Part shown: positions 10,486 to 26,639 of the stretch, piece by piece | Numbering within the stretch: the first letter of the stretch is position 1 | Layout: each line of letters opens with the position of its first letter | Source: Patescibacteria group bacterium | Lineage (GTDB): Bacteria > Patescibacteriota > Patescibacteriia > Magasanikbacterales > GWA2-37-8 | DNA length: 64,000 nucleotides | Direction: 5' to 3' | Assembly: GCA_041661385.1 (NCBI GenBank) | Contig: JBAZUP010000001.1 | Coordinates: 354,560 to 418,559 of the forward strand | Program-made: the position numbers and the translations under genes | The notes under the pieces: model-generated | Seen by the model: only the letters and a program-made list of their open reading frames with translations | Databases searched by the model: none | Told to the model about the DNA's origin: nothing

Positions 10486-10550
10486 GCTTATTATCTTAAC
10501 ACGGGTTTTTTTATTTGACCAGAGCCTAAAAAATTATTTATTTTAAAGCC

Positions 10551-11102: not shown

Positions 11103-11174
11103 AATATTAATTTTATTGTATTTATTTTAGCCTACTAAGCCCCCTTGGTCAAATATCCATGTTTTCCAATGCAT

Positions 11175-12632: not shown

Positions 12633-12692
12633 AATTTTAAATTAGCACTCATTTTATCATTTTTTATGCAAAAAGTAAACCGGCAACCCAAC

Positions 12693-12723
12693 AAAAAACC
12701 GGTTCATTTTTAACCGGTTTTTG
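12693..12723 (-). terminator. Intrinsic terminator (aaaaaccggttcatttttaaccggttttt)
   Basis: 10-bp stem aaccggtt.../...aaccggtt flanked by T-run. Downstream of the stop of minus gene 12739..13218. Confidence 0.45.
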
Positions 12724-12738
12724 TTAATAAACAAATTC

Positions 12739-13218: not shown

Positions 13219-13223
13219 ATAAT

Positions 13224-13796: not shown

Positions 13797-13797
13797 A

Positions 13798-13879
13798 TTC
13801 GAAATGAGTGAGCGAAATGTTTGGCTTGCAAAACATTTCCGAGCGAATGAGAATATATGTGGCGAAGCCCCTATATATA
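13798..13879. repeat. ~82-nt repeated leader element, copy 1 (conserved flanks, variable central hairpin)
   Basis: ttcgaaatgagtgagcgaa-[gaaatgttt ggcttgca aaacatttc]-cgagcgaatgagaatatatgtggcgaagcccctatatata. Near-identical flanks recur at 45026..45176. It sits 2 nt upstream of the start codon of the minus-strand gene (…TTCGAATATG). Confidence 0.6.
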
Positions 13880-13984
13880 ATTAATGGTAATAGGTATTAT
13901 ACGCCTGCAAATAAAAAAGGCCAGCATTTCTGTTGGTCGTTTTTTGCAGCGAGGATACGAAAAATTACGAAACGAATTTAAGGA

Positions 13985-14068
13985 TTAGGGCGGGCGGAAG
14001 GAGGCCTGCCCGCAATACTACGCATAGCGTTGCAGGCGGGGGTTTGGGGAGGAATTCCGCCCGCCCTG
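13985..14068. repeat. GC-rich structured element bounded by a perfect 13-bp inverted repeat (AGGGCGGGCGGAA / TTCCGCCCGCCCT)
   Basis: 55-65% GC segment inside a ~35% GC genome, with nested GC stems (gcctgc...gcaggc). Follows the stop of the minus gene 14093..15130, so it may act as a long-stem terminator. Confidence 0.4.
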
Positions 14069-14092
14069 GGGCCCGCGCGCTTTTTGACGATT

Positions 14093-15130
14093 TCAAGTTT
14101 TTCCGTTTTTATTGTTACTCGACATCACATTATTGTCCTGGCTGATGCCTAAATCAGAACTTGAATTAAACTCGTTCAAAACATCATTAATATCAACAAA
14201 TTGTTTAATTTCCGATTCGCCGCTTTCTAAATCTATGACAATGTGCCCCAAGGATGTTTTTACGGCATTTTGCTTTAGCGAATTTTCTCCCGACGAGTAA
14301 TTAGAATCATAATATCGTTTATCAACATCGGTTCTATTTTCATCTGAGTCTTCCTCTCTCCGTTTTTCGGAAATAATATTCAGCCTTGTTTTATTTCCCT
14401 TAATCTCTTGAAATAATCGCTCAGAAAAAGATGTTACCAGCCCGTGGTGTGGAGTAATTAAAAAATCAATTCCAATTTCATTCAGCTGGTTTTTGAATTC
14501 AGTATTGTTTTCAATCAAGTACTCCATACCTTCTTTTAGAATATCTCCAGGCATTAAAACGCTCTTAGCTTCTAATTGAATAAACAGAAGAAGGCTTATA
14601 TTATTTGCGTATCCGGGTTTTAAAATTTCAGAATTTCCACACTCATTTGGTTTAATATAGAACAATTTTACCACCTCTGGAATGGTTGAAACCAAGGGGT
14701 TGGACGGAGACATTCCGAAAGGGTTGCCAGGAACATTTGCAGTCCTTTTTTTCATATCAGAAAGTACCAACTTCCTAATTTCATTTTCTCCAGTAATAAA
14801 ATTAATAATTATTTTAAAAATACTATCTTGGGTTTCGTTGTCGTTCGGACAAGTCATGTAATTTGGATGAAATCTTTCCCTAAATATTTCATAATCAGAT
14901 ATGTGGTCATTATCCAAATGACTAAGAAACAACTGGTCTATGTAGAACTTGTCAGGACTACCAAAAGTATCCGCTTTTCTAAAGGATCGGCTGTGTGCCA
15001 AAGGAATCAAAAAATTTTCTACCGGAGAAAATTCGGAACTCTTTCCGAGATCAATTACCAATTTTTTATCATCAATTTCAGCATAGGATGACAATGCCCC
15101 GCCTACATTAAAAATTGCAATCTTTTTCAT
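14093..15130 (-). CDS. Degenerate MBL-fold (metallo-beta-lactamase-like) hydrolase
   Basis: 345 aa. N-terminal IAIFNVGGALSSYAEIDDKKLVIDLG. Motif SHLDNDH (H-x-D-x-D-H in place of HxHxDH). Late ITPHHG motif typical of ComEC/MBL hydrolases. Confidence 0.4.
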   Translation of the reverse strand: MKKIAIFNVGGALSSYAEIDDKKLVIDLGKSSEFSPVENFLIPLAHSRSFRKADTFGSPDKFYIDQLFLSHLDNDHISDYEIFRERFHPNYMTCPNDNETQDSIFKIIINFITGENEIRKLVLSDMKKRTANVPGNPFGMSPSNPLVSTIPEVVKLFYIKPNECGNSEILKPGYANNISLLLFIQLEAKSVLMPGDILKEGMEYLIENNTEFKNQLNEIGIDFLITPHHGLVTSFSERLFQEIKGNKTRLNIISEKRREEDSDENRTDVDKRYYDSNYSSGENSLKQNAVKTSLGHIVIDLESGESEIKQFVDINDVLNEFNSSSDLGISQDNNVMSSNNKNGKT

Positions 15131-15798
15131 ATTTTCTTTAAACTCAACAATACGGTTTTAAAAACTAATCCTCGAGCCAAGCCTCTGCCTCTCCATAAAA
15201 AAATAACAAACAATAATGAACTTAAAATACTATAATAAAAGTATTTATTAACTAATAAAATAACGGCTATAATAAAAAATTCCAAAGAAATCACTCGCAC
15301 AAACAAATAATTTCTGTTTGCCGTTTTTATTTCATCAGTTTCACTTACATGAGAGTAAAGTTTCCAAAAAATACTCTGAGACATATCATCATTATTTTTA
15401 TCCTTTTTCCACCACCAAAAAGACAAATCAGAATATTTCTGGTTAAAAGGGCGTAACACCGCTTCTTCTAATTTAATATCTTTTACCAATTCATTTCTTT
15501 TATTCTCATTCTTTATTACTGGATTACAACTGTATAAAAAGACTTCTGACGGTCTTCGTAATTTAAAAAAGATATCTATGACCCACTCTATCTCGTGAGC
15601 AATGGTTTGCAGCACCTCCCCAGCAATGAACGCGGAACAAAAAAACAAAAATGTGTAAAGAAAATCCAAATTTTCGTTAAAGCCAAAATTAATTTTATCT
15701 ACAAATATAAAAAATAGGATTAACAATAAAAATCCGCCAGGCATTACCTTAATGACCAAGTCTTCTAATGAGAATTTTTCTACCATAATATTAAACAA
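15127..15798 (-). CDS. Hypothetical membrane protein
   Basis: 223 aa with N- and C-terminal TM helices. Overlaps the downstream gene by 4 nt (operonic). Confidence 0.35.
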   Translation of the reverse strand: MFNIMVEKFSLEDLVIKVMPGGFLLLILFFIFVDKINFGFNENLDFLYTFLFFCSAFIAGEVLQTIAHEIEWVIDIFFKLRRPSEVFLYSCNPVIKNENKRNELVKDIKLEEAVLRPFNQKYSDLSFWWWKKDKNNDDMSQSIFWKLYSHVSETDEIKTANRNYLFVRVISLEFFIIAVILLVNKYFYYSILSSLLFVIFLWRGRGLARGLVFKTVLLSLKKI

Positions 15799-15825
15799 TA
15801 ATGATTTGTAGAATCTACAAACTCA

Positions 15826-16491
15826 CTACAAACCTAAGGCGGTTAGCTTTTGATCAATATAGTCGGAGCCTTGTGTTTCTCGCGGAAACGATCCGTCGGC
15901 ATTAAAGAATGTAATCTCTTTTTCAGGGTGGGTGGCCTTCTTTGGAAAGAAAGATGTAATTTTTTCAATATCAGTAAATGGCGCTTTTTCTATTTCTTCT
16001 CCTTCGATTTCTGCAGTATGAGCTCCCGAAGACAATGATTTGGTATTTGGTCTCTCCTTTATAAGCTCGCCCATTCTCGTAGCTGCTAACTGCCAATAAG
16101 TCGCGAGAGCTATTTCATGTTCAACGATAGATCCTTCATGGAATTTTTCAAGGTGTTCCAATAACTCTTTTGTGACATCCCAAAGAGAATCATATTTCAT
16201 TGAACCCTCGGAGTAATCAATTTTAGTTGACTCTCCGATCATAAGTAAAAACATTGATTTAAGTAAATAGTCTTTTCCGTCTATATTACTTTGTCGAGAA
16301 AATACCTCAATCCAACTGTCATCAATTTTTTCAAATAAATGAGGGTAATCTTTAAATCTTTCTTTCCTTTTTAGCTCGTATTCAGCATTAGATTTCTCGC
16401 TTGCAATCGCTTCTTTCTCGTCTTCTTTCTGGCGATAAATCCGCCAGAGTATATAGGCTATTATTGCCAACAAAATATAAACTAAAGTCAT
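15826..16491 (-). CDS. Hypothetical protein with N-terminal TM anchor
   Basis: 221 aa. TM helix LVYILLAIIAYILWRI followed by a charged soluble domain. Confidence 0.35.
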   Translation of the reverse strand: MTLVYILLAIIAYILWRIYRQKEDEKEAIASEKSNAEYELKRKERFKDYPHLFEKIDDSWIEVFSRQSNIDGKDYLLKSMFLLMIGESTKIDYSEGSMKYDSLWDVTKELLEHLEKFHEGSIVEHEIALATYWQLAATRMGELIKERPNTKSLSSGAHTAEIEGEEIEKAPFTDIEKITSFFPKKATHPEKEITFFNADGSFPRETQGSDYIDQKLTALGL

Positions 16492-16499
16492 AAATTTAT

Positions 16500-17105
16500 C
16501 TAAAAAATAAGTGATAGATAATTTCGGAATTTAATTATAACCCCAATAATTAGAAAGATGGTAGCTACTACAACAAATTGATTTTTAGACAAACTAGAAA
16601 TTGGAATCTTTTTCCCGTCATTTAAGATTTTAACCAATTTGTTTCTTTCTAAGCATGCGGGGCAAATATACGGATTTGTTGATACAAAAAATATTAATAG
16701 CCCAAATATATTCAGTATGGTAAATAAAAATGCAATTCCAAAGATCCAGCGCGCTTCCCATTTGTATGGTTTTTTAACCTGACCACAACGTTTGCACTCT
16801 ACAAAAATTATATAAGATTTGCTTTTTTCAGGAATAATTAACTTGTTTAAAGAAAGCGCGGATGCAACAGCATTTTTGTTTTGAATTGTTTCTTCGTTTT
16901 GATTAGCAAAATATTCAGCATCAGAGGCAGCTTTAATCTGCTCATCTTTTTTCTGTAAATCTTCAGTTGTTTTTAGATCAGTAAATAATTTTGTCTTTTC
17001 CTCCTCCAAATACTTGTAATATTTTTGCCATTCCACTTCTGGGTCCAAGCCCTCATCCTTCATCCGTTTGACCGCCCTTTGCTCAAAAATTTTTTCGTCC
17101 GTCAT
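16500..17105 (-). CDS. Hypothetical protein with zinc-ribbon-like CxxC...CxxC pair and a TM segment
   Basis: 201 aa. CKRCGQ...ICPACLERN flanking a hydrophobic helix. Confidence 0.35.
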   Translation of the reverse strand: MTDEKIFEQRAVKRMKDEGLDPEVEWQKYYKYLEEEKTKLFTDLKTTEDLQKKDEQIKAASDAEYFANQNEETIQNKNAVASALSLNKLIIPEKSKSYIIFVECKRCGQVKKPYKWEARWIFGIAFLFTILNIFGLLIFFVSTNPYICPACLERNKLVKILNDGKKIPISSLSKNQFVVVATIFLIIGVIIKFRNYLSLIF

Positions 17106-17122
17106 AAATTTTTATTAGTTTT

Positions 17123-17575
17123 TCAATTAAAAAATTTATCAATAGCCGATAATGTACTGAATAAATTTAGTCCCGGCAGAAGTTTATCAGTAAACGCAAA
17201 AATAAGCACAAGTGTAAACATAAAAAGAATTAAGCCGGCGACAGGAATTAAAGACAGCAATTTTTTAATGCCCTTTTGTTGATTTAGTAATTTAATAAAA
17301 TAATAAAATAGCGTACCGACGACAACGAGATCAATGGCATACAGCCACCATATGAAAACTAACGAAAAAGTTGATACTCCTTCAGATGCCGCCGAGTGAA
17401 AAAAAGAGGATGCCAATAAAAATATTGTGGTTTTTAGAAAAGTCCAACCGACAGGAGCAAAAAAACTATAGATTACATAAACAAGCAAAAGAAGTCGCAA
17501 TGGCAAAAGAAAATCCCTTTTTAAAACATCATGCAAGAAAAATGATTTGACCTGGTCATATTGAGAGTTCTTCAT
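17123..17575 (-). CDS. Hypothetical polytopic membrane protein
   Basis: 150 aa with 4 predicted TM helices. Confidence 0.35.
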   Translation of the reverse strand: MKNSQYDQVKSFFLHDVLKRDFLLPLRLLLLVYVIYSFFAPVGWTFLKTTIFLLASSFFHSAASEGVSTFSLVFIWWLYAIDLVVVGTLFYYFIKLLNQQKGIKKLLSLIPVAGLILFMFTLVLIFAFTDKLLPGLNLFSTLSAIDKFFN

Positions 17576-17583
17576 ATGTAAAA

Positions 17584-17781
17584 CTACATAATTAAATCAT
17601 CAATACTTATCTCAAGTGCTTTTGCAATTTTCTTGAGAGTATCTAGAGTAGGATTTTGGTTTTTTCCTGACTCAATTTTAATAATCGTGTTATTTGCCAC
17701 ATCGGCTAATCTGGCCAATTTTTCTTGTGATAATTTTTTGTCTTCTCTAAGTTTTCGTAAATTTGTGTTAATGTTTGACAT
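17584..17781 (-). CDS. XRE-family (Cro/cI-type) helix-turn-helix transcriptional regulator
   Basis: 65 aa. LSQEKLARLADVANNTIIKIESGKNQNPTLDTLKKIAKALEISIDDL is a canonical HTH_3 signature. First gene of a tightly packed minus-strand operon running 17781 to 14093. Confidence 0.7.
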   Translation of the reverse strand: MSNINTNLRKLREDKKLSQEKLARLADVANNTIIKIESGKNQNPTLDTLKKIAKALEISIDDLIM

Positions 17782-17926
17782 ACCTACATCAGAATAGTAG
17801 AATTAAAGTGGTAGTAATATTTCTTTTCTAGTACTTTAAAGCTACACCCAAAATTCGAAATAGACAAGGGAGTTCCAACCCCCTCTGCGCATAGGTCAAG
17901 TTCCACTCCATAATATCTTACAAAAT

Positions 17927-17956
17927 AAAATAACTCCTTATTTAAGGAGTTATTTT
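17927..17956. terminator. Palindromic intrinsic terminator (aaaataactccttatttaaggagttatttt)
   Basis: Perfect 12-bp stem with A/T flanks. Lies downstream of the 18100..22895 operon and upstream of the XRE operon promoter. Confidence 0.45.
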
Positions 17957-18099
17957 ATTTGCAGGACAGTCCGGTCTAGAACTTTTTATGGTGAGGCCGT
18001 TGAGGGCTTCTTGAAGGGTCGCTTCCCCTTCTATATAATCCCTCTCGGTCGGGGTCTAAAATGCGACAAATGCGACAGAGCTAACAATATATGATGACC

Positions 18100-18852
18100 T
18101 TATTTTTTTATTGTATTTTCAGCCAAAATGGTTCTTCTTTTAAATTCTTTTAGAATATCATTTGAGTCAATTGATTTTCTAAAATGAAAACAACTCGCTT
18201 GATTTTTCTCCGGAACAACATAATCAATCAAACTCTTCCCGTCTGGATCCCCACAGTGAACTTGATGGACAAATTGCTTACTATATTTTTCTCTATCATT
18301 ATAGTCACAATAATAAATGATCTTGTCGGTACTTAGCTGGAATACATGGGAATCCCCGTGGCCAAAAAAATATACTTCTTTTATACTTTTATCACTCATT
18401 ATTTTCTCAATATCTTTAACATTTGCCATAGTATAAAATGAAAACCTCTTACCTTCTATTTTTAACAATTCAACTAACGCAACAATTTCGCTTTTTAAAT
18501 AATTATGTTTAATCCAAGCTTCCAACTTAAACCAGTCTGATTGCCCTAAAACAATGACGGTTTCCGCAGGAATGTTTTGTTCAAAAGTATTAATATACTT
18601 GTGTATTAAATGGTCCTGGATTGGAATTATAATTGCAAATATTGGTGAGAGAAAAAACCTCAAAAAATCATCCCAGAAAATCAAGGTTCCATAAACCATT
18701 ACAAAAAATACATGTACATAAACAACAGAAAGAAAACCATACCCCTTAATTACCAAAACACCCAAACAAAAAATATAAACAAAAAATTGAATCAACCCCA
18801 CATCGGTTCTTCTCAAAATTTTTTCTACTTTTTTCATAAAAATTTCAACCAA
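18100..18852 (-). CDS. Membrane protein with two N-terminal TM helices and a C-terminal soluble domain containing GHGDSH and downstream Cys motifs; candidate effector/accessory of the adjacent CBASS-like operon
   Basis: 250 aa. TM helices FFVYIFCLGVLVIKGYGFLSVVYV and VFFVMVYGTLIFW. C-terminal VYFFGHGDSHVFQLS…IIYYCDY…VHCGDPDG. Start codon 6 nt after the stop of the upstream gene. Confidence 0.45.
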   Translation of the reverse strand: MVEIFMKKVEKILRRTDVGLIQFFVYIFCLGVLVIKGYGFLSVVYVHVFFVMVYGTLIFWDDFLRFFLSPIFAIIIPIQDHLIHKYINTFEQNIPAETVIVLGQSDWFKLEAWIKHNYLKSEIVALVELLKIEGKRFSFYTMANVKDIEKIMSDKSIKEVYFFGHGDSHVFQLSTDKIIYYCDYNDREKYSKQFVHQVHCGDPDGKSLIDYVVPEKNQASCFHFRKSIDSNDILKEFKRRTILAENTIKK

Positions 18853-18858
18853 TAATAG

Positions 18859-19449
18859 CTAGAATGCCCCAATAAATTTAAGCTTCCATCTATCAGTATA
18901 TTTTAGTTCAATTTTTTTATATCTAAATTTATATTTTATAAGACTAAAATTGTCAAAAAGTTGACCCGCATCATCTAAAACACTACTTAGCCCATCTTCC
19001 GTCAAATCATTTGGAATTAATATTCTTAATGACGGTTCAAACGGGCCAGAAATTGTATTTGCCAAGACAATAAATTCACGGTTTTTGCTTTGCAAATACT
19101 TATACGATTTAACGACAACCAATTTTGTAATCTCCCACCCGATGTTGGGCAAAACAAATACCGTAAAAAAATATATACCTGGACCAATCCATGATTCAAT
19201 ACTAAAATAACCGCCGCCGCCCAACATCGGCTCATTTCTTCCTCTAATCAAATCGTTTAATCTAAACTTAAAAAAATGCTTAATCCCAAACCACTTATAA
19301 TTAAAATACCCTTTAATTATATCGATATAATATAATCTACTTTTAAAGTAGATCTTCACCTCGCCATTACCTGCAATCGTTCCCTCTAAATCTTTTAGAA
19401 TTTTATTATTAAGCGATTCATCTGTTACAAATATGGTAGTTTTATCCAT
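18859..19449 (-). CDS. Hypothetical protein in the CBASS-like operon (one central hydrophobic segment)
   Basis: 196 aa, no recognisable motif. Gly-rich loop MLGGGGYF. Hydrophobic stretch IGPGIYFFTVFVLPNIGW. Only a 6-nt gap to the NTase gene stop. Confidence 0.4.
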   Translation of the reverse strand: MDKTTIFVTDESLNNKILKDLEGTIAGNGEVKIYFKSRLYYIDIIKGYFNYKWFGIKHFFKFRLNDLIRGRNEPMLGGGGYFSIESWIGPGIYFFTVFVLPNIGWEITKLVVVKSYKYLQSKNREFIVLANTISGPFEPSLRILIPNDLTEDGLSSVLDDAGQLFDNFSLIKYKFRYKKIELKYTDRWKLKFIGAF

Positions 19450-19455
19450 AATAAT

Positions 19456-20832
19456 TTATCTCTTTTTAATAAATCTAAAGCGCCGTCTGTTTATGATATT
19501 TACATGAAAAGGACCACTGCGTGCTACCATTCGGCCTCGGTTTACAACGAAGCATTCAATCCAATGTTTCCCCGAATATGAAGCTTTTTCGTGATTTATT
19601 TTTTGATTCGAAGTCAACTTATTATAGAGATCTTTACCCTTAAAAAATCCACCTCTCAACCCATTATCTTGTTTTGCTTCTATCCCCGTGTTCACGACCT
19701 GCCAAAATATTTCAGAACCTGCCGGCTCATTTAAAGTGATGGCTTCATATTTAAAAGTATTTCCGTCAAATTGAACCGGTCCGTTTGAAGGAATTTCCAT
19801 TAATTTATATCCACTCGAAGTACATTTAATTTTTACTGAACAACCTACATTTGTGATTGGCCATTCTGGCACTTTAAGGTGTTGATAATCTCCAAGCGGA
19901 AACACTGTTTCAGATAGTTGCTTTTCCGCGTCCTTTACAGCAATCAAAAAATCATCGCCAAAAATTTCAGTCCATTTCTTAACTGAACTTTCAAAGTCCG
20001 GATCATCATATGCGTCACTGATCTTTTCGGTATATAATTTAAATTTATCTCTAAAATTTTCATACTTTTCTTGATCCCAATGCCTATTAAAATCTTCACT
20101 CGGGAGGCTTGGATTAACAATTGTAGGCATTACTGGATTTCGCTGTAAATAGTCATTAACACGGTTACAAATATTTTTTAACGTCGTTGGTACATCTGAA
20201 AATATAATAACTGGATCGCTAACATAAACATTTTGACCAAGAAGAGTAGTGAGCAAAATTGATTTTACATTCATTAATTTTGTATCACGAAGATACTTAA
20301 CAAGTCTAACAACTTTAACCAAATTATTTTGTGCAGCAGAATTCTTTGCTGAAAACCATTCCGCGTATCCATCAGCGTCAGTTATTTCGTATTGATTGGT
20401 ATTTTTATTCATGATCTTTTGATTGCCGGCATCATCAACACATGGGATAATATCCATATGAAAATCGGATTCATAATCCAAGGTCACGCAACGAGTTTTT
20501 CCCCGTTTATCAACAATATCTTTATATCTATCAGTTTTGAAAAACTCATCATGAAGAATTGCTAAATAGTCCTTCGGTTCCCATCCATTAACTTTTTTTA
20601 GCTGAAAAAGTAAATCAACATCAAAATCTTTATTATCCATGCATGGCTTTATGATCGTTCCCTGACGATATGACCCTTGAGGTTTTACTGAAATAAAATA
20701 TTTTTTAAAAATGTCATTATTTTTTAGAAATTTTTCTACTGTTTCTATCCCCGTTTTTGCAACATCAATCCTATTTTGATTAAGATTAACTGTATTCTGT
20801 AAAAATATTGAAAACTCGTTAACTAGATTCAT
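19456..20832 (-). CDS. cGAS/DncV-like (SMODS-type) nucleotidyltransferase with an extra C-terminal ~150-aa domain (AGS-C-like sensor domain)
   Basis: 458 aa. Minimal NTase signature GSYRQGTIIKPCMDNKDFDVDLLF (GS…[DE]h[DE]h) plus a third acidic residue in FHMDIIPCV. The C-terminal segment VPEWPITNVGCSVKIKC…HWIECFVVNRGRMVARSG lies beyond the NTase core. Confidence 0.7.
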   Translation of the reverse strand: MNLVNEFSIFLQNTVNLNQNRIDVAKTGIETVEKFLKNNDIFKKYFISVKPQGSYRQGTIIKPCMDNKDFDVDLLFQLKKVNGWEPKDYLAILHDEFFKTDRYKDIVDKRGKTRCVTLDYESDFHMDIIPCVDDAGNQKIMNKNTNQYEITDADGYAEWFSAKNSAAQNNLVKVVRLVKYLRDTKLMNVKSILLTTLLGQNVYVSDPVIIFSDVPTTLKNICNRVNDYLQRNPVMPTIVNPSLPSEDFNRHWDQEKYENFRDKFKLYTEKISDAYDDPDFESSVKKWTEIFGDDFLIAVKDAEKQLSETVFPLGDYQHLKVPEWPITNVGCSVKIKCTSSGYKLMEIPSNGPVQFDGNTFKYEAITLNEPAGSEIFWQVVNTGIEAKQDNGLRGGFFKGKDLYNKLTSNQKINHEKASYSGKHWIECFVVNRGRMVARSGPFHVNIINRRRFRFIKKR

Positions 20833-20833
20833 A

Positions 20834-22012
20834 TCATGAAGGATTAACTATAATGGTTTCTTCGTAATTTCCTTTATCATTCCTGTCGTAAATAATTAAG
20901 GAAGGCGTAACACCCTTTAGCAACTCCCTACCTATGTGAAAAGCTAAAGAAACCGGAACTGCTGCAAAGACATGCAGTTCTTTTGTACTAGGGTGGAGTT
21001 TCTCAATTTCTCTCAATAGCTGTGCGTATCGTACACGAAAAATTTCGGCAGATTTATTTGATCCAATTATACTCCTAGAACTATCTTCCCCAATGGGATT
21101 AAGCCTATAAATGGTAAAAGATTTACCGATGTTGGCTGGGAGAGCGTTTCGCGCTATTACGCCGCTCGCAGAAATGCAAAGTGCGATTTTATCCTTAGCA
21201 CCGATCTGCTCCACGGTGGATTTAAAATCTATGGAACCTTTTATGGATGGCCATTTCCAACTCTCAGACGAATCCCTGTGCTTTTGATATATATCAATTT
21301 TAATTTTATCGCCAATTTTATTGCCGAAATAAGCTATTAACGGAATCCTGGCGAGCGCAAAAACGGAGATATGCTTGACCGACCCATCTTCAATCGATGG
21401 AAAAATTTTGAGATCGACAACCTTATCAATAATTTTTTTTCCTTCATCCCAGTAATAAGAATCCTTTCCAGCAATTTTAGACAAGTCAATTTCTATACCG
21501 TTTTGTTTCCCAGCCATAAGGTACCGGGGATAACGATTACAAGCTAAAACCGCTTCTCGTATTTCACCATCTGAGACAGAAACTGTACCTCCTCTAATAT
21601 TACCAATTAATCGAATGACTGCTGTTTCCGATTCTGGTCCGAGCGAGGTTTGGTACAAAATCCTATCTTCATGAACTTTTTTATATTCCAAAAGGAGTTC
21701 AACCGGAAAATCTTTCGGAGATTTATCTATAATTTTATTATGATGTTCTGAACAGAGAAGCATCAAATTGCCTACTTTGTTTCTATCCGTGACAGGAAGA
21801 GAACAACTCCCTCGAGGCCCCTTCCGTGACCGTCCAACAACGTGCGCAACATCCCCCAAAAAAAGTTCATTTAATCCTGTAAACTCATCATCCAATAGGT
21901 ACTTATTGCACCCTAAAAATTCACATCTGCCACCCGCTCTAACCCACAGAGCTATTCTCACTGGATTGGATTGTGTTATTGAAGATGCTTTTTCTTCAGT
22001 AGTCTTCGGCAT
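20834..22012 (-). CDS. cap5: Cap5-type effector: HNH endonuclease fused to a SAVED cyclic-oligonucleotide sensor domain
   Basis: 392 aa. N-terminal HNH (GGRCEFLGCNKYL…HVVGRSRKGP…NLMLLCSEHHNKIID). C-terminal SAVED hallmark HVFAAVPVSLAFHIGRELL…IIYD. Confidence 0.75.
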   Translation of the reverse strand: MPKTTEEKASSITQSNPVRIALWVRAGGRCEFLGCNKYLLDDEFTGLNELFLGDVAHVVGRSRKGPRGSCSLPVTDRNKVGNLMLLCSEHHNKIIDKSPKDFPVELLLEYKKVHEDRILYQTSLGPESETAVIRLIGNIRGGTVSVSDGEIREAVLACNRYPRYLMAGKQNGIEIDLSKIAGKDSYYWDEGKKIIDKVVDLKIFPSIEDGSVKHISVFALARIPLIAYFGNKIGDKIKIDIYQKHRDSSESWKWPSIKGSIDFKSTVEQIGAKDKIALCISASGVIARNALPANIGKSFTIYRLNPIGEDSSRSIIGSNKSAEIFRVRYAQLLREIEKLHPSTKELHVFAAVPVSLAFHIGRELLKGVTPSLIIYDRNDKGNYEETIIVNPS

Positions 22013-22014
22013 AT

Positions 22015-22245
22015 TTAATGAACTTTATCCTTTGGCGGACAACTATCGTTGCCGAAACTGTCCTTATCTTTAATTAGACCATGTCGATTGTGATAAACGG
22101 CCTCAACCTCAGCTCTTTTTGCGAGAGTGTGAGTTTTGTCTTCAGCGGCCTCTTGAGTGCGATGAACCGAAACCGGCTTACTTACCCCTTCTTTTTTTAC
22201 AGCCCAGTCACCATCCCAGGGCACACTATGATAATTTTTTGCCAT
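22015..22245 (-). CDS. DUF2188-family small protein
   Basis: 76 aa. MAKNYHSVPWDGDWAVKKEGVSKP…HTLAKRAEVEAVYHNRHGLIKDKDSFGNDSCPPKDKVH matches the conserved DUF2188 pattern (W.VK.EG…H.TQ.EA…G.I.DKDSYGNDP.PP.D). Its stop abuts the cap5 start. Confidence 0.6.
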   Translation of the reverse strand: MAKNYHSVPWDGDWAVKKEGVSKPVSVHRTQEAAEDKTHTLAKRAEVEAVYHNRHGLIKDKDSFGNDSCPPKDKVH

Positions 22246-22259
22246 AAATAAATAATAAA

Positions 22260-22895
22260 TTATTTTTTAACAACTCTAACCACAACGCCATTAACAAAAT
22301 ATTTGCCATCCTCTACATCCTCTTCGTGGATCGTTATTGGCGGTGCGTCGTTATCCGTCTCAGAAATAAGTCTGATTTCATGCTTTGTATTGTCCTTAAA
22401 AAATTTCTTAATATTCGCGGCACCGTCAATTACCGACAAAACATAATTCCCGTTGCTGGGTTTTTGCTTGCATTCAACAACTACATAATCACCGGTTTCG
22501 ATTCCTTCTCCCTTAATGTTAGCGCCAGTCATAGAATCACCCACCGCTCTAACCGCAATGAGTCCGTCCGGCCGATATTGCCCAATTGATTTTTTAGAAA
22601 TTTTTAAATAGCCCTCAATATGAGTTTCGGCTAATTCTGTGGCTGGACCACAACTCGCTGATCCGACAATGGGAATATTAAAAAAGTTATCCACAGTATA
22701 CCCCTGGGGCTTTGCCACCCGCTGACGCTTATTGGAATCAAAATACAACAACCCCTTCTTCTTTAGCTGCTCTAGATTATATATGACGGACTGAGGATGT
22801 TTAACCCCGATTTCACGCATTATTTCCCTGAATTTCATATCAGAAATATCCTTTTTTTTGGCTAATTTTAGTAATTTTTCTTGTGTTTCGTTCAT
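22260..22895 (-). CDS. LexA-like repressor (winged-HTH + S24 autopeptidase domain)
   Basis: 211 aa. N-terminal wHTH (IMREIGVKHPQSVIYNLEQLKKKGLL). S24 catalytic Ser in AVGDSMTGANI and Lys in AANIKKF. First gene of the operon. Confidence 0.7.
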   Translation of the reverse strand: MNETQEKLLKLAKKKDISDMKFREIMREIGVKHPQSVIYNLEQLKKKGLLYFDSNKRQRVAKPQGYTVDNFFNIPIVGSASCGPATELAETHIEGYLKISKKSIGQYRPDGLIAVRAVGDSMTGANIKGEGIETGDYVVVECKQKPSNGNYVLSVIDGAANIKKFFKDNTKHEIRLISETDNDAPPITIHEEDVEDGKYFVNGVVVRVVKK

Positions 22896-22970
22896 AAACC
22901 TATATTTTATCGGTTTTTTAAATATAATGCCTGCTATAAATTCAGCGGGGCTGATACCCCATCGGTTATA

Positions 22971-22999
22971 GTATATTATAAATGATTTATAATGTCAAG
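22971..22999 (-). promoter_or_regulatory. Sigma70-like promoter for the lexA-like operon with a 17-bp palindromic operator in the spacer
   Basis: In minus orientation: TTGACA – ttataaatcatttataa (17 nt) – TATACT. The spacer is a perfect inverted repeat TTATAAAT c ATTTATAA (22977..22993). Confidence 0.45.
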
Positions 23000-23015
23000 A
23001 GATTTTTTAACACCC

Positions 23016-23044
23016 TTGACACCAATCAAAACCGAGCGTACAAT
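23016..23044 (+). promoter_or_regulatory. Divergent sigma70-like promoter for 23077..23553 (TTGACA-17-TACAAT)
   Basis: cTTGACAccaatcaaaaccgagcgTACAATc, about 30 nt upstream of the ATG at 23077. Confidence 0.45.
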
Positions 23045-23076
23045 CTTTATAAGCGCTAAAAACTAACAACACAACT

Positions 23077-23553
23077 ATGAAACTAGTAATTTCCCAAGCC
23101 AAACCAAACCCGACCGGCAAGGACCGTCCCCCGTTTGGATCAATCCTGCCGTTTCAGTTAGCGGCGGAATGGATTGATATTACCAACTCCGACAATGCAA
23201 GCATAAATCTTAATGGCCTTCAAATATATAATCTTTCCTATACGAACGGAACAGCACAATGGAGAATTGTTCGTGAATTTAATCTTGGCAACAAATGCAT
23301 GTTGCCACCGGGAAAAACTGTAAGACTGCACTCTGGAAAAGAAATATCAACAAATACAATGCGAACTGAAGATCAACTCGGCACCAACTACCATCTTTTC
23401 ACCGAATATAATAATTACATTTGGAACAATAAACAAATTGATAGGCCATGTATTTTTAACCCCTCCACAAAAGCAACATTAGACGTAACCCAATATAACC
23501 CGCCTGTCCCCGATGGAAAAATTTTAAAAAGATATGGAGACTTTCTTATTTAA
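23077..23553 (+). CDS. Lamin-tail-domain (LTD)-like protein
   Basis: 158 aa. LVISQAKPNPTGKDRPPF…AAEWIDITNSDNASINLNGLQIYN…KTVRLHSGK follows the LTD pattern (NP.G.D..EWIEL.N....v.L.G..L). Confidence 0.45.
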   Translation: MKLVISQAKPNPTGKDRPPFGSILPFQLAAEWIDITNSDNASINLNGLQIYNLSYTNGTAQWRIVREFNLGNKCMLPPGKTVRLHSGKEISTNTMRTEDQLGTNYHLFTEYNNYIWNNKQIDRPCIFNPSTKATLDVTQYNPPVPDGKILKRYGDFLI

Positions 23554-23654
23554 CTCTTAAATAATCGCTTGATGATTACAATTTACTTTTGGTAGAGCAA
23601 TCTAAGGAATAAAATGATTTTGATTGGTTTTTAGATACCGTGACTGGTATTCGT

Positions 23655-23720
23655 TGAAACGAGCGCTCGCCTTTCTACAACACCCTTGGTGTTTTAGTTG
23701 GGCGGGCGCTTTTTTTAAAG
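23655..23720 (+). terminator. Long-stem GC-rich terminator (gcgctcgcc…ggcgggcgc + T7)
   Basis: 9-bp GC stem with a ~39-nt loop, followed by ttttttt after the + gene 23077..23553. Shares the GGGCGGGCG motif with the element at 13985..14068. Confidence 0.4.
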
Positions 23721-23755
23721 GTCGAAAATATAATTAACTAAAAAATTTAATATAT

Positions 23756-25084
23756 ATGATTAATACAAAACTTAACATCGTGGAAGTTCCGGTCAACGAA
23801 CTTCGAGCGTCGGAATACAATCCACGCAAACATTCTAAAGAACAATCCGACCAGCTTAAGAAATCAATTGAGCGCTTCGGCCTCGTGGACCCAATCATTT
23901 GTAATAACGCACCGGAGCGAAAAAATATCATCGTTGGCGGCCACTTTAGAGCCGAAGTAGCCAAAGAGTTAGGCCTGACCACGGTACCTGTAGTGTATGT
24001 CTGTATTACAGAGATACAAAAGGAACAGGAGCTTTCAGTCCGTCTTAACAAAAATACCGGGGAGTTTGACCTTGATCTCCTAGCAGAATTTGACGAAGCC
24101 TTCCTAGCCGATGTCGGTTTTGATAGCGAAGAGATAGATGACATCTTTCCTACTGAGGTAAATACCGAGATGTTTGACTTGAAAAAGGAACTAGAAAAAT
24201 TAAATATCCAAGAAATTACCGTACAGAAAGGAGACACTTACGAATTGAACGGCTCTCGCCTCCGGTGTGGCGATTCAACAATTGAGGCGGATGTTATTAA
24301 ACTTATGAATGGCGAAAAGGCCGACATGTGCTTTACCGATCCACCATATATCCTTGATTACCTCAAAGGTAAAACAAAAAATAAGGATGGAGTGACCGTT
24401 GGCTTTGGCGCTAAAAAGAATCGTCGCTACCTTGAAACCGACGAACTGCCACCAGATTTTACGGAAAAATGGATAGCTAATATTAACAAGGTTGCCAAAG
24501 AGAGCTTTGCCATCATTGTTTATGAGAACTGGAAGAACCTTCGGATTATTTGGGGCGAGCTTGAGAAATATTGGAAAGTAAAAAATATGATTGTTTGGCA
24601 CGTCCCTAATCGGATGCAAGGATTTTCAGCTAAAAATAAATTCTTTAATAAACACGATATTGCCATGGTCGGGGCGTCGGAAGACAAAGCGCTTGAAGCA
24701 GAAGATGAAGGCGAACTGCTTGAAAATGAATATGAGACGGCGCTCTACGCCATTGCTGGCAAGCCACATTGGGAATCCTACGAAACCGGCAAAAAAATCT
24801 GCCCGACCGATTTTATAGATTATAAGGCGGCTGACGAAAAATCATCAGGACAAGGTGTAATCTTTGGAACCAAACCAACCGAAATCCTTATCCCCTACAT
24901 TAAAGTCCTTACCAAGCGAAACGATCTGATCGTTGAACCTTTCGGTGGTAGTGGTTCAACCCTAATTTCAGCGATTAAGATGAATCGCCGCTGTTATATC
25001 ATGGAAAAATCACCAGTTTACACCGAAGTCATTTTGAAACGCTGGGAAAAAGAAACTGGAGAAAGACCAAAGAAAATCAACTAA
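23756..25084 (+). CDS. ParB-like nuclease N-terminal domain fused to an N6-adenine/N4-cytosine DNA methyltransferase
   Basis: 442 aa. ParB/Srx motif (VNELRASEYNPRKH, IIVGGHFR). MTase motif IV TDPPY and motif I EPFGGSGST. Confidence 0.75.
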   Translation: MINTKLNIVEVPVNELRASEYNPRKHSKEQSDQLKKSIERFGLVDPIICNNAPERKNIIVGGHFRAEVAKELGLTTVPVVYVCITEIQKEQELSVRLNKNTGEFDLDLLAEFDEAFLADVGFDSEEIDDIFPTEVNTEMFDLKKELEKLNIQEITVQKGDTYELNGSRLRCGDSTIEADVIKLMNGEKADMCFTDPPYILDYLKGKTKNKDGVTVGFGAKKNRRYLETDELPPDFTEKWIANINKVAKESFAIIVYENWKNLRIIWGELEKYWKVKNMIVWHVPNRMQGFSAKNKFFNKHDIAMVGASEDKALEAEDEGELLENEYETALYAIAGKPHWESYETGKKICPTDFIDYKAADEKSSGQGVIFGTKPTEILIPYIKVLTKRNDLIVEPFGGSGSTLISAIKMNRRCYIMEKSPVYTEVILKRWEKETGERPKKIN

Positions 25085-25085
25085 T

Positions 25086-25670
25086 ATGATCGACGACAAG
25101 ACAAAACTAAACCTTCTAAAAGAAATCCAAAAAAACGGTAACGTTAGTTTGTCTTGCATTAGAATTAATATTGATCACGCAACCTATTATCGCTGGAAAA
25201 AAGAAGATAAAGAATTTCGTAAAAAAGCCAACGAGGCTGAAACTATCGGAAGAAAAAATAATTGTGACCTGGCGGAGCACGCTTTAATACTTCTGGTAAA
25301 GGAAAAAAAGATAGAAGCTGTCAAATATTTACTAAGCCACAATTCACCCAGGTACAAACCAAAAACAACGAACGCTGTAATACTACATAAATCTTTACCA
25401 AAATTAGAACCAGTACCGACAAGAACCCTGGAGGATCTGCTGGTCGAGGATGGTGAACAGCGCAGAGAAAGATGCGTTAGTATCCAGAATAAATTTCTCG
25501 CCTTAGGCGGTGTTCCACCTAAGGCTGATGGATCGCCAATTGAATTTCACGAACTAATTGATTATGAGATATATATTGAGGAGTGGTATAAGAAGAAAGA
25601 TATTGATGACGAAAAGAAAAATATACCGACTACTGAGTATCAAAAAATTTCACCATTAACAAACGGCTGA
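25086..25670 (+). CDS. Phage terminase small-subunit-like HTH protein
   Basis: 194 aa. N-terminal LKEIQKNGNVSLSCIRINIDHATYYRWKKEDKEFRKKANEA resembles the TerS/homeodomain-like HTH. Confidence 0.4.
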   Translation: MIDDKTKLNLLKEIQKNGNVSLSCIRINIDHATYYRWKKEDKEFRKKANEAETIGRKNNCDLAEHALILLVKEKKIEAVKYLLSHNSPRYKPKTTNAVILHKSLPKLEPVPTRTLEDLLVEDGEQRRERCVSIQNKFLALGGVPPKADGSPIEFHELIDYEIYIEEWYKKKDIDDEKKNIPTTEYQKISPLTNG

Positions 25671-25673
25671 AAT

Positions 25674-26381
25674 TTATTTATATACTTCAAGTGACCCACC
25701 AAAAGCCGTGACCTCAGCCACCTTTTCATTAGATTGTACATCGCGAATTTCAAGGTGTTTAAAACCAGTTATCTCCTCCTTCAGCATTGCTAGCTTTGCA
25801 AGAATATCTTTTTTGAAAGTAACTTTTTGGGAATACCAAGCAGGACCGACGTAAACGACGCTTGCTGTTTTGGAAAACTCATATGAATCAAAAAGGCCAG
25901 CTTGTTTACCTAGATTAATTAGTTCATCCAGCTCCTTCTGTGCCTCTTCCTTTGGACGGGCTGTCTGCACTGTTGTAACTGCTTCAGTTTTAACTTGACT
26001 ATCCTTATTAACTTGCTCAGGGGTTGTACTCACAACAATTTGTTTATCCTGAATTTTAACTAAGGATTCCGGTTCTTTTTTTACTTCAGGAGCAGCGACA
26101 CCAATCATAATCAGAGAAACAAAACCCAACAAGCCAAATATTAAGGTTAATTTTTTTCTATTTGGCTGTGATTTAAAAAATCTTGTAAACAAAGACGGCT
26201 TGGCAAGACCAATAAACCAAGCAATTATTGATCCAAAAAATATAAAACCAAATAACGTTTGCATACTTATTTTAATAATTAAATAAATAAAGCCGACCTT
26301 TAGATAAGCCGGCATGAAACACAAAACCCCACGCCAGCTGGGCTTTTTACGGCCCCATACACCTTTCGATGTATGACTCAA
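25674..26381 (-). CDS. Hypothetical membrane protein (true start possibly at 26264, Met40 MQTLFGF…)
   Basis: TM helices followed by a Thr/Lys-rich linker and a C-terminal soluble domain. The first ~39 codons overlap a terminator-like palindrome and are probably not coding. Confidence 0.4.
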   Translation of the reverse strand: MSHTSKGVWGRKKPSWRGVLCFMPAYLKVGFIYLIIKISMQTLFGFIFFGSIIAWFIGLAKPSLFTRFFKSQPNRKKLTLIFGLLGFVSLIMIGVAAPEVKKEPESLVKIQDKQIVVSTTPEQVNKDSQVKTEAVTTVQTARPKEEAQKELDELINLGKQAGLFDSYEFSKTASVVYVGPAWYSQKVTFKKDILAKLAMLKEEITGFKHLEIRDVQSNEKVAEVTAFGGSLEVYK

Positions 26382-26385
26382 CTAA

Positions 26386-26428
26386 GAATAGCTGAACGTG
26401 GAGTTCAGTGTCTTAGTTGAGTTTCGAA
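26386..26428. repeat. Long imperfect inverted repeat (actcaactaaga…tcttagttgagt) in the intergenic region 5' of the serine recombinase
   Basis: 12-bp arms plus 5-bp inner arms (ctgaac/gttcag). Candidate recombinase att core, operator or part of a structured RNA. Confidence 0.35.
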
Positions 26429-26639
26429 GCACCATGCCTAGAGGTTATCTGGGTTTAGGTACTTGGCCTTCCAGCCTGAATTGTCAATGACATTTTAGCT
26501 AAATTATAGCCAAATGTCCAGCACATAATAGCTTAGAATAGGTGCTTTGCGAAGCTTAGTTATCTACAGTTTGTCTACTAGGGGCTCTGGACTAACTAGC
26601 GGGGTCTGCGTCATTAATGTCTATGAGATAATATAATCT

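What the first reader, a model, noticed from the sequence alone, without database searches (positions are those of the whole stretch)
19456..20832. Cyclase carries an extra ~150-aa C-terminal domain
After the complete NTase core, a Cys/Gly-rich extension (VPEWPITNVGCSVKIKCTSSGYK…GKHWIECFVVNRGRMVARSGPFHVNI) remains. I interpret it as an AGS-C-type sensor appended to a SMODS synthetase. That would imply ligand-gated activation different from canonical cGAS-like CD-NTases partnered with Cap5.
Basis: partly seen in the sequence, partly recalled or inferred. Interest (0 to 1): 0.55.

Follow-up and report, generated by a model that had tools for sequence, protein, structure and literature searches.

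The report
CBASS cyclase with known AGS-C domain

Summary
The 458-aa ORF at 19456..20832 (-) is real. It has a complete CD-NTase core (residues 1-307), a linker, and a separate 120-130-aa beta-sandwich domain (326-447). That domain matches Pfam AGS_C (E 4e-22). Its best fold match in the PDB is the only solved AGS-C domain (Pycsar EcPycC, 9ard).

The architecture is not new. A PADLOC CBASS cyclase model covers the protein end to end (E 3e-133). All but a few of the 120 best database homologues listed carry SMODS+AGS_C. A 2023 preprint reports AGS-C on about 40% of Type I CBASS cyclases. In related loci, Cap5 pairs with AGS-C-bearing cyclases more often (16) than with AGS-C-less ones (4). The gene sits in a Type I CBASS (Cap5 HNH-SAVED effector plus cyclase) in a Patescibacteria genome.

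Side observations:
- AGS-C-less close relatives carry a CBASS E2 gene instead; the two are mutually exclusive (p = 5e-6).
- The operon is headed by a LexA/UmuD-like repressor inside a serine-recombinase cassette. This arrangement recurs in 11 of 12 related loci from candidate-phyla-radiation (CPR) bacteria, the group that includes Patescibacteria.

What AGS-C senses remains unknown.

The parts
19456..20832 (-). CD-NTase (CBASS oligonucleotide cyclase) with C-terminal AGS-C domain, 458 aa
   Evidence: ORF list. PADLOC Cyclase PDLC00793 E 3.1e-133, covering residues 1-446 of the protein and positions 1-461 of a 462-position profile. Pfam SMODS + AGS_C + DncV-like_NTFase.
19912..20832 (-). CD-NTase catalytic core plus helical domain (residues 1-307). 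Includes the GS motif (G53 S54, 20671-20676) and the catalytic Asp residues D71/D73 (20614-20622) and D127 (20452-20454).
   Evidence: Pfam SMODS 1-164. Alignment to BcCdnD 9sa4 over residues 17-304. Foldseek TM (target-normalised) 0.74-0.78 to CdnD and BfCdnB. Q52, G53, S54, D71, D73 and D127 are invariant in 61 homologues.
19858..19911 (-). Interdomain linker (residues 308-325), poorly conserved
   Evidence: No regular secondary structure in the model. Mean top-residue frequency 0.38, against 0.61 for the core.
19492..19857 (-). AGS-C immunoglobulin-like beta-sandwich domain (residues 326-447; the Pfam AGS_C match covers 317-446, i.e. 19495-19884)
   Evidence: Pfam AGS_C E 4.4e-22. Stand-alone model pLDDT 93.8, almost all strand. 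Top PDB fold hit is 9ard_A, the EcPycC AGS-C domain. W377, N381, A386, G394, G421 and H423 are invariant; R393, E415, Y419 and C427 are at least 95% conserved.
19459..19491 (-). Short basic C-terminal tail (INRRRFRFIKKR), variable among homologues
   Evidence: Low pLDDT. 46% gaps and top-residue frequency 0.19 in the alignment. Similar Lys/Arg-rich tails occur in some homologues only.
20834..22012 (-). Cap5 effector (N-terminal HNH nuclease, about 21737-21880; C-terminal SAVED sensor, 20852-21379). Its stop codon is 1 nt from the cyclase start.
   Evidence: PADLOC Effector/Endonuclease E 2.4e-109 and SAVED_HNH E 3e-100. Pfam SAVED E 2e-35. PDB 7rwk E 1.2e-42, full length.
22015..22245 (-). DUF2188 small protein (76 aa) between the repressor and Cap5. 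It is probably co-transcribed; its role is unknown.
   Evidence: Pfam DUF2188 E 1.3e-15. PADLOC candidate PDC-S16 E 5e-23. The same position upstream of Cap5 is seen in L057.
22260..22895 (-). LexA/UmuD-like repressor (winged HTH plus S24 self-cleaving peptidase) heading the operon
   Evidence: Pfam Peptidase_S24 E 5.7e-16 (above cutoff); LexA_DNA_bind E 8.8e-5, 22.6 bits, just below its 23.7-bit cutoff. TIGR00498 lexA is below its cutoff. A C-G cleavage-type site, a GDSM Ser and an IKK Lys are present. The same position is occupied in 17 of 62 related loci.
22970..22998 (-). Promoter-like site (TTGACA, 17 nt, TATACT) whose spacer is filled by a perfect 9-1-9 palindrome (22975-22993). Candidate operator/promoter of the LexA-like-to-cyclase operon.
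   Evidence: Consensus match only: the total count of promoter-like sites in the region is no higher than in shuffles.

Best explanation
This is the nucleotide cyclase of a Type I CBASS anti-phage system in a Patescibacteria genome. It consists of a catalytically intact cGAS/DncV-like nucleotidyltransferase (residues 1-307) fused through a short linker to an immunoglobulin-like AGS-C domain (326-447).

Proposed working:
1. The enzyme is held inactive in uninfected cells.
2. During infection the AGS-C domain recognises, or transmits, a phage-derived cue and licenses the NTase core. The cue is not known.
3. The core makes a cyclic di- or oligonucleotide.
4. The signal binds the SAVED domain of the adjacent Cap5, and the Cap5 HNH nuclease then degrades DNA, aborting the infection.

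Shown here: the domain architecture, the fold, the intact catalytic residues, the Cap5 partner, the absence of other CBASS accessory genes, and the conservation of a polar residue set in AGS-C.

Inferred: steps 1 and 2 (the sensor role of AGS-C), the identity of the nucleotide product, and Cap5 activation. AGS-C being a real, separate, conserved module that replaces other regulatory partners is well supported. AGS-C directly binding a ligand is only about even odds.
For: - Domains: SMODS E 5e-32 and AGS_C E 4.4e-22; a full-length PADLOC cyclase model at E 3e-133.
- Models: full length pLDDT 93.5, pTM 0.81; C-terminal domain alone pLDDT 93.8, pTM 0.87.
- Fold: the core matches CdnD, CdnB, CdnC and CdnG. 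The C-terminal domain's top hit is 9ard_A, 'EcPycC cyclase immunoglobulin-like AGS-C domain' (TM 0.53/0.60), followed by nanobody and other Ig-like folds.
- Catalysis: the GS motif and three Asp residues are invariant in 61 homologues.
- Partner: Cap5 HNH-SAVED lies directly upstream with a 1-nt gap.
- Type I: no Cap2/Cap3/HORMA/TRIP13/E2 within about 10 kb.
- Modularity: 841 database homologues at E <= 1e-5, and nearly all of the 120 best listed carry SMODS+AGS_C. In 64 related loci AGS-C and a CBASS E2 gene never co-occur (0 of 37 against 12 of 27, p = 5e-6). This fits AGS-C being one of several interchangeable regulatory modules.
- Literature: AGS-C is on about 40% of Type I CBASS cyclases. 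Operons with it have a different phage-defence range, and escape mutants give cross-resistance among AGS-C-bearing operons.
Against: - No ligand or activating cue for any AGS-C domain was found in the papers read.
- The fold match to 9ard is modest (E 1.8e-3, 18% identity), and a sequence profile of the domain finds nothing in the PDB.
- I could not inspect model coordinates, so I cannot say where the conserved AGS-C residues lie relative to the active site.
- The CD-NTase clade is unresolved: a family profile scores SmCdnG 3.7e-24 and BcCdnD 2.4e-23. The product cannot be predicted from sequence.
- Activity of this particular system is untested.
Confidence: 0.85

Rival explanations
1. AGS-C is not a ligand or phage sensor. 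It is an autoinhibitory, oligomerisation or stability module that sets the activation threshold of the cyclase, much as the E2 partner does in Type II-short CBASS. The phage cue is sensed by the NTase core itself.
For: AGS-C and the E2 regulator are mutually exclusive in this family, so they may fill the same regulatory niche. The full-length model has pTM 0.81, which suggests a defined packing of the two domains rather than a freely tethered receptor. The invariant residues could form an interface with the core rather than a ligand pocket.
Against: The literature reports that AGS-C presence changes which phage families are restricted, and that escape mutants are shared across AGS-C operons. 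That points to a role in specificity. The Ig-like fold is a typical recognition scaffold. This reading does not fully exclude the best explanation.
Confidence: 0.3
2. The C-terminal 150 aa are an integral part of the standard CD-NTase helical domain.
For: None found.
Against: The region is almost all beta strand. Solved CD-NTases align only up to about residue 310. It folds independently. Relatives with 55-61% core identity end at about 329 aa without it.
Confidence: 0.01
3. The fusion is an artefact (frameshift, misassembly or read-through of two genes), or the system is a decayed remnant.
For: Two related loci show split or merged ORFs (L050 and L064 have AGS-C in a separate ORF; L010 has Cap5 and the cyclase in one 801-aa ORF). 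Such events therefore occur in MAG data.
Against: The sequence is identical in three independent sources. The same 440-470-aa architecture appears in nearly all of the 120 best homologues listed. Catalytic and AGS-C signature residues are intact. Gene packing with Cap5 is tight.
Confidence: 0.02

Closest known systems
CD-NTase-AGS-C fusion cyclases of Type I CBASS (clades B and H, parts of F and G; e.g. PpCdnB06-Cap15, CdnF04/05, CdnG09 in Richmond-Buccola et al., bioRxiv 10.1101/2023.05.21.541620)
   Same: Same two-domain architecture: a SMODS/CD-NTase core plus an Ig-like AGS-C domain of about 18 kDa. Same operon type: cyclase plus one effector with no Cap2/Cap3 or HORMA genes. A PADLOC model built from such cyclases covers this protein end to end.
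   Different: The host is a Patescibacteria (CPR) MAG rather than a gammaproteobacterium. The nearest database relative is only 51% identical. The clade is not resolved. The operon is headed by a LexA-like repressor.
AGS-C domain of the Pycsar cyclase EcPycC (PDB 9ard)
   Same: Best structural match of the C-terminal domain (TM 0.53/0.60). Same position, at the C-terminus of a nucleotide-signal cyclase. Same Pfam family.
   Different: Only 18% identity. It is attached to a different cyclase fold (a class III-type cNMP cyclase, not a Pol-beta NTase). A sequence profile of this domain does not retrieve it.
SmCdnG-E2 and other Type II-short (E2-only) CBASS (PDB 8hsb)
   Same: SmCdnG is the top profile hit of this cyclase family in the PDB (E 3.7e-24). 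The closest AGS-C-less relatives (55-61% core identity) sit next to a CBASS E2 gene.
   Different: The window enzyme has no E2 neighbour and carries AGS-C instead. The two features never co-occur in 64 loci.
Cap5 HNH-SAVED effectors with solved structures (7rwk, 8ysq, 7rwm, 8fm1)
   Same: The partner gene aligns full length to 7rwk at E 1.2e-42, with the HNH His/Asn/His positions aligned. From my own knowledge, not checked here, characterised Cap5 proteins respond to cyclic dinucleotides such as 3'2'-cGAMP made by CdnG-type enzymes.
   Different: The ligand of this Cap5 and the product of this cyclase are unknown.
CBASS transcriptional regulators CapW (WYL) and CapH/CapP (HTH plus metallopeptidase)
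   Same: A repressor gene sits directly upstream of the CBASS genes, with a protease-based, DNA-damage-type release mechanism expected. This is named from my own knowledge; the CapH model exists in PADLOC.
   Different: Here the repressor is a single-chain LexA/UmuD-like S24 self-cleaving protein. Its close relatives head other defence cargo too. I found no paper describing this pairing in the searchable library.

Membership tests
CD-NTase / SMODS (cGAS-DncV-like nucleotidyltransferase) | Pol-beta NTase fold with a G-S activation-loop motif and a catalytic Asp triad (DxD ... D) | tested here: met
   QGSY (52-55), DVD (71-73) and D127 are present; Q52, G53, S54, D71, D73 and D127 are invariant in 61 homologues, while position 55 varies. 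Pfam SMODS E 5e-32 and DncV-like_NTFase E 2e-8.
CD-NTase / SMODS (cGAS-DncV-like nucleotidyltransferase) | Helical C-terminal lobe completing the cGAS-like bilobal core | tested here: met
   Helices at 155-307 in the model. Foldseek TM (target-normalised) 0.74-0.78 to CdnD (7d4j) and BfCdnB (7ljo).
CD-NTase / SMODS (cGAS-DncV-like nucleotidyltransferase) | Synthesis of a cyclic di- or oligonucleotide | not testable with these tools
   Needs purified enzyme and LC-MS.
CD-NTase clade (A-H) | Placement in a reference phylogeny of labelled CD-NTases | tested here: inconclusive
   No labelled reference set was at hand. The family profile scores SmCdnG 3.7e-24, BcCdnD 2.4e-23, CdnD02 about 1e-18, BfCdnB 3e-10 and DwCdnB 1e-6. 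E2-partnered sister branches and mixed AGS-C presence fit clade G or F as described in the paper read.
AGS-C domain (Pfam PF18134) | Match to the family HMM above the curated threshold | tested here: met
   78.9 bits against a 26.7 cutoff, E 4.4e-22, residues 317-446 covering profile positions 4-128 of 129.
AGS-C domain (Pfam PF18134) | Ig-like beta-sandwich fold resembling the solved AGS-C domain | tested here: met
   The stand-alone model is almost all strand, pLDDT 93.8. The top PDB hit is 9ard_A (EcPycC AGS-C), TM 0.53/0.60, E 1.8e-3, followed by nanobody and Ig-like folds. The match is moderate, not strong.
AGS-C domain (Pfam PF18134) | C-terminal fusion to a nucleotide-signal cyclase | tested here: met
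   It follows the complete SMODS core in one ORF.
AGS-C domain (Pfam PF18134) | Sensor function (binds an activating cue) | not testable with these tools
   No ligand is known for any AGS-C in the papers read.
Type I CBASS | Cyclase plus effector only: no Cap2/Cap3 (E1/E2/JAB), no E2-only gene, no HORMA/TRIP13, no Cap6-8 | tested here: met
   Pfam and PADLOC scans of all ORFs from 10057 to 27932 found none. The two downstream genes are an ORFan and a family not linked to CBASS.
Cap5 (HNH-SAVED effector) | N-terminal HNH nuclease plus C-terminal SAVED domain, encoded next to the cyclase | tested here: met
   PADLOC SAVED_HNH E 3e-100. Pfam SAVED E 2e-35; Pfam HNH_2 only weak, below its cutoff. 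Full-length alignment to 7rwk at E 1.2e-42 with the AH...N...HH positions aligned. 1-nt gap to the cyclase.
LexA / UmuD-type S24 self-cleaving repressors (for the operon's first gene) | N-terminal DNA-binding wHTH, an Ala/Cys-Gly cleavage site, and a Ser-Lys dyad | tested here: met
   LexA_DNA_bind is a weak match (E 8.8e-5, just below its cutoff) and Peptidase_S24 matches above its cutoff. An S-C-G site, a GDSM Ser and an IKK Lys are aligned across 17 loci. It is not the lexA equivalog: 77.7 bits against a 110.95 cutoff. Self-cleavage and DNA binding are untested.

The most novel reading that the evidence does not exclude
The cyclase itself is ordinary, but its setting may not be. The operon is headed by a LexA/UmuD-like self-cleaving repressor. 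It sits in a cassette of serine recombinase, HTH protein and ParB-methyltransferase that recurs with CBASS in 11 of 12 related CPR loci. Close relatives of the repressor head other defence cargo instead: Type II and IIG restriction-modification, and PDC-M30A.

The most novel reading is that an SOS-type, RecA-triggered repressor places interchangeable defence modules under DNA-damage control on a small mobile element that spreads through CPR bacteria. That would be a regulatory layer distinct from CapW and CapH/CapP. Within the CBASS cargo, AGS-C and E2 would be swapped as alternative cyclase regulators.
Probability: 0.4. Interest if true: 0.45.

Novelty: new member of a known kind. Interest (0 to 1): 0.2.

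Why it matters
For the finding as stated, it matters little. It correctly labels one more uncharacterised member of a large, already catalogued class of CBASS cyclases, and the open question (what AGS-C senses) is not made more tractable by this example alone.

Three modest points of value:
1. The alignment gives a compact set of invariant AGS-C residues to mutate (W377, N381, R393, E415, H423).
2. The clean AGS-C versus E2 exclusivity among close relatives offers a natural swap experiment on how CBASS cyclases are licensed.
3. It documents CBASS, with a LexA-like head gene on a recombinase cassette, as a recurrent defence module in small-genome CPR bacteria.

Tried and rejected
1. Split AGS-C. 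I asked whether the overlapping 200-262-aa gene downstream of AGS-C-less relatives is a detached AGS-C. It shows no similarity. It is the CBASS E2 regulator.

2. Extra CBASS components. I asked whether the two genes packed behind the cyclase (18859..19449 and 18100..18852) belong to the system. They have no homologue in 62 related loci. The first is an ORFan in 5.8 billion proteins. The second belongs to a small unannotated family found in other islands without CBASS.

3. Dedicated CBASS regulator. The LexA-like gene's close metagenomic relatives precede restriction-modification and other cargo, not CBASS. It is better read as a general head-of-operon repressor.

4. Element borders. There is no tRNA nearby and no convincing flanking direct repeats. 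The borders are left undefined.

5. Clade assignment. PDB sequence and profile scores were ambiguous between G and D.

6. Further structure searches for AGS-C. A sequence profile of AGS-C against PDB sequences gave zero hits. The viral structure library gave only generic Ig-like and Hoc-type matches.

7. Literature searches. Searches for DwCdnB, LexA-like plus CBASS, and CBASS plus Patescibacteria gave nothing relevant. The supplement of the key preprint is not held.

8. Prophage carriage of the same cassette. Ten viral contigs encode AGS-C cyclases, but none carries the LexA-like cassette.

Full report
**1. Observation**

The same DNA is found at 100% identity in two independent public assemblies (L001, L002). 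The exact protein is on record as 'MAG: nucleotidyltransferase [Patescibacteria group bacterium]' on a contig of about 779 kb. The long ORF is therefore not a sequencing or assembly artefact.

The description 'Cys/Gly-rich' is overstated. The last 153 residues hold 3 Cys (2.0%) and 14 Gly (9.2%), and only C427 is conserved.

**2. What it is**

Sequence evidence:
- Pfam finds SMODS at residues 1-164 (E 5e-32) and AGS_C at 317-446 (E 4.4e-22, 78.9 bits against a cutoff of 26.7).
- A PADLOC CBASS cyclase model covers the protein from residue 1 to 446 at E 3e-133. The whole two-domain architecture therefore belongs to an already modelled cyclase cluster.

Full-length model. An AlphaFold2 model built on 61 homologues is confident (pLDDT 93.5, pTM 0.81). 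It shows four parts:
- a mixed alpha/beta NTase lobe and a helical lobe ending at residue 307;
- an unstructured linker at 308-325;
- a beta-strand domain at 326-447;
- a short basic tail.

Comparison with solved structures:
- Solved CD-NTases (CdnD, BfCdnB, CdnC, CdnG) align only to the first part of the model, over 290-355 columns (target-normalised TM up to 0.78).
- Sequence alignment to BcCdnD ends at query residue 304.
- The C-terminal 151 residues modelled alone fold with pLDDT 93.8 and pTM 0.87.
- Their best PDB match is 9ard_A, deposited as 'Pycsar EcPycC cyclase immunoglobulin-like AGS-C domain' (TM 0.53/0.60, E 1.8e-3), followed by nanobodies and other Ig-like domains.

The catalytic GS motif and the three Asp residues are invariant across homologues. 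So is a set of AGS-C residues: W377, N381, A386, G394, G421 and H423, with R393, E415, Y419 and C427 at 95% or more.

**3. Surroundings**

Cap5 lies directly upstream, separated by 1 nt. It is an HNH-SAVED effector (PADLOC E 2e-109; full-length match to PDB 7rwk at E 1e-42).

No Cap2/Cap3, E2, HORMA or TRIP13 gene is found among the ORFs from 10 kb to 28 kb of the window. This is a Type I CBASS.

Six genes are packed with gaps of 14 nt or less: LexA-like, DUF2188, Cap5, cyclase, a 196-aa gene and a 250-aa gene. The last two are not conserved CBASS parts:
- Neither occurs in 62 related loci.
- The 196-aa protein has no relative in 5.8 billion proteins.
- The 250-aa protein belongs to a small unannotated family seen in other islands.

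**4. Comparison with what is known**

The fusion is well documented. The preprint 10.1101/2023.05.21.541620 states several things:
- About 40% of Type I CBASS operons encode a CD-NTase-AGS-C fusion.
- The fusion is nearly universal in clades B and H and present on some branches of F and G.
- The domain is Ig-like and about 18 kDa.
- Its presence shifts the range of phages restricted.
- Its mechanism is unknown.

AGS-C is also fused to Pycsar cyclases.

In the protein database, 841 homologues pass E <= 1e-5, and nearly all of the 120 best listed carry SMODS+AGS_C at 40-51% identity.

In 62 genomic loci of relatives, the effector directly upstream of the cyclase varies. Among 54 such ORFs scanned there were 25 patatin, 18 SAVED (Cap5-type), 3 NUDIX, 1 TatD and 1 STING. 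Cap5 pairs with AGS-C-bearing cyclases in 16 loci and with AGS-C-less ones in 4.

The CD-NTase clade could not be fixed. A family profile scores SmCdnG and BcCdnD almost equally.

**5. AGS-C and E2 are alternatives**

The relatives with the most similar cores (55-61% identity) are about 329 aa long and lack AGS-C. Twelve AGS-C-less loci carry an overlapping downstream gene. It turned out to be the CBASS E2 regulator: all 11 members scanned hit PADLOC E2 models, with a best E of about 1e-59. That is the known Type II-short arrangement, exemplified by SmCdnG-E2 (PDB 8hsb).

AGS-C and E2 never co-occur: 0 of 37 against 12 of 27, Fisher p = 5e-6. This agrees with the literature statement that AGS-C is confined to Type I systems. 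It also supports reading AGS-C as one of several interchangeable modules that control cyclase licensing.

**6. Mechanism**

The best-supported account is the standard CBASS scheme. An inactive cyclase is licensed during infection, with AGS-C taking part in recognising or transmitting the cue. It makes a cyclic nucleotide that binds the SAVED domain of Cap5, and the Cap5 HNH nuclease then destroys DNA.

- Shown here: architecture, fold, intact catalytic residues, partner and system type.
- Inferred: the sensor role, the product, and Cap5 activation.

The main rival is that AGS-C is an autoinhibitory or assembly module rather than a receptor. My data cannot separate the two readings, and the E2 exclusivity fits either.

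**7. Context noticed along the way**

A LexA/UmuD-like repressor heads the operon. It has a wHTH, a Cys-Gly cleavage-type site, a GDSM Ser and a Lys. Upstream is a strong promoter-like site whose 17-nt spacer is a perfect 9-1-9 palindrome.

The same gene order (LexA-like, effector, cyclase) occurs in 17 of 62 related loci. That is 11 of 12 CPR loci against 6 of 50 others, p = 3e-7. It often comes with a divergent ParB-methyltransferase, a 194-aa HTH protein and a serine recombinase.

Close metagenomic relatives of the repressor head other defence cargo instead: Type II and IIG restriction-modification, and PDC-M30A. Distant relatives head ordinary SOS genes. The repressor therefore looks like a general switch for a cargo slot rather than a CBASS-specific factor.

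I found no description of this arrangement in the searchable literature. That library is incomplete, so this is a lead, not a claim of priority.

**8. Verdict**

- Observation: confirmed.
- Interpretation: supported.
- Novelty: low, a new member of a known kind.
- Interest: 0.2.

Noticed in passing
window 22260-22895 (-), and loci L008, L009, L012, L014, L016, L017, L019, L021, L023, L024, L029, L036, L038, L040, L041, L043, L048: A LexA/UmuD-like S24 repressor sits directly upstream of effector plus cyclase in 17 of 62 related loci (11 of 12 CPR loci, p = 3e-7). It occurs with both AGS-C-bearing and E2-partnered cyclases. The Cys-Gly site, Ser and Lys are conserved.
   Followed up: partly
window 22970-22998 (-): A promoter-like TTGACA-17-TATACT site whose spacer is a perfect palindrome, ATTATAAAT-c-ATTTATAAT (22975-22993). 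It lies about 75 nt upstream of the LexA-like start and is a candidate operator. A divergent 11-of-12 promoter-like site lies at 23016-23044 (+).
   Followed up: partly
window 23756-27932; loci L009, L014, L017, L021, L023, L024, L029, L041, L048: A ParB_N-N6_N4 methyltransferase (23756-25084), a 194-aa HTH protein (25086-25670) and a large serine recombinase (26640-27932) recur next to LexA-like plus CBASS in 9-12 loci. This suggests a small mobile cassette. The element ends were not found.
   Followed up: partly
loci L083-L089 (metagenome contigs): Close relatives (37-47% identity) of the LexA-like protein are followed by other defence cargo and not by CBASS: a Type II methyltransferase plus a 237-aa gene, a Type IIG restriction-modification enzyme, or PDC-M30A plus a radical SAM protein. 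This implies a variable cargo slot behind the repressor.
   Followed up: partly
loci L006, L028, L029, L030, L032, L036, L037, L038, L040, L043, L048, L066: AGS-C-less close relatives of the cyclase carry an overlapping downstream CBASS E2 gene with a SEC-C-like Cys motif (Type II-short). AGS-C and E2 are mutually exclusive across 64 loci.
   Followed up: yes
window 18859-19449 (-) and 18100-18852 (-): Two genes are packed directly behind the cyclase (gaps of 6 nt). The 196-aa protein has no relative in 5.8 billion proteins. The 250-aa protein has a hydrophobic N-terminal region (predicted membrane-spanning from the sequence; not tested with a tool), conserved-looking GHGD and HCGD motifs, and a small unannotated family. 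That family occurs next to an E1/E2 (ThiF/Prok-E2_E) module plus DUF2188 in L079, and next to a ParB-methyltransferase in L080.
   Followed up: partly
window 22015-22245 (-): A DUF2188 protein (PADLOC candidate PDC-S16) is wedged between the repressor and Cap5. The same placement occurs in L057, and DUF2188 also appears in the island L079.
   Followed up: no
window about 15963, and 15000-21000: Contigs from two other sequencing runs (L001, L002) both end exactly at window position 15963. GC content drops to 0.31-0.35 between 15 and 21 kb, against about 0.38-0.45 in most of the rest of the window. This may be a strain-variable or recently acquired segment.
   Followed up: no
locus L010 6133-8538; loci L050, L064: In L010, Cap5 and the AGS-C cyclase read as a single 801-aa ORF (a possible fusion or a missed stop). 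In L050 and L064 the AGS-C part is in a separate ORF (a possible frameshift).
   Followed up: no
window 27939-36965 (-), 37618-41319 (-), 49840-55587 (-): Giant ORFs of 3008, 1233 and 1915 aa. The first contains diverged tandem repeats of about 345 nt at 28555-29526.
   Followed up: no
window 14093-15130 (-) and 11175-12632 (-): A metallo-beta-lactamase-fold protein with weak PADLOC hits (RTasMBL, LmuA, PDC-M48B; about 1e-8) and a PIF1/RecD-like helicase lie on the same strand downstream. They may be further defence-island content.
   Followed up: no
loci L069-L078 (viral contigs): AGS-C-bearing cyclases related to this one occur on 10 predicted viral contigs. One has Cap5; none has the LexA-like cassette.
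   Followed up: partly
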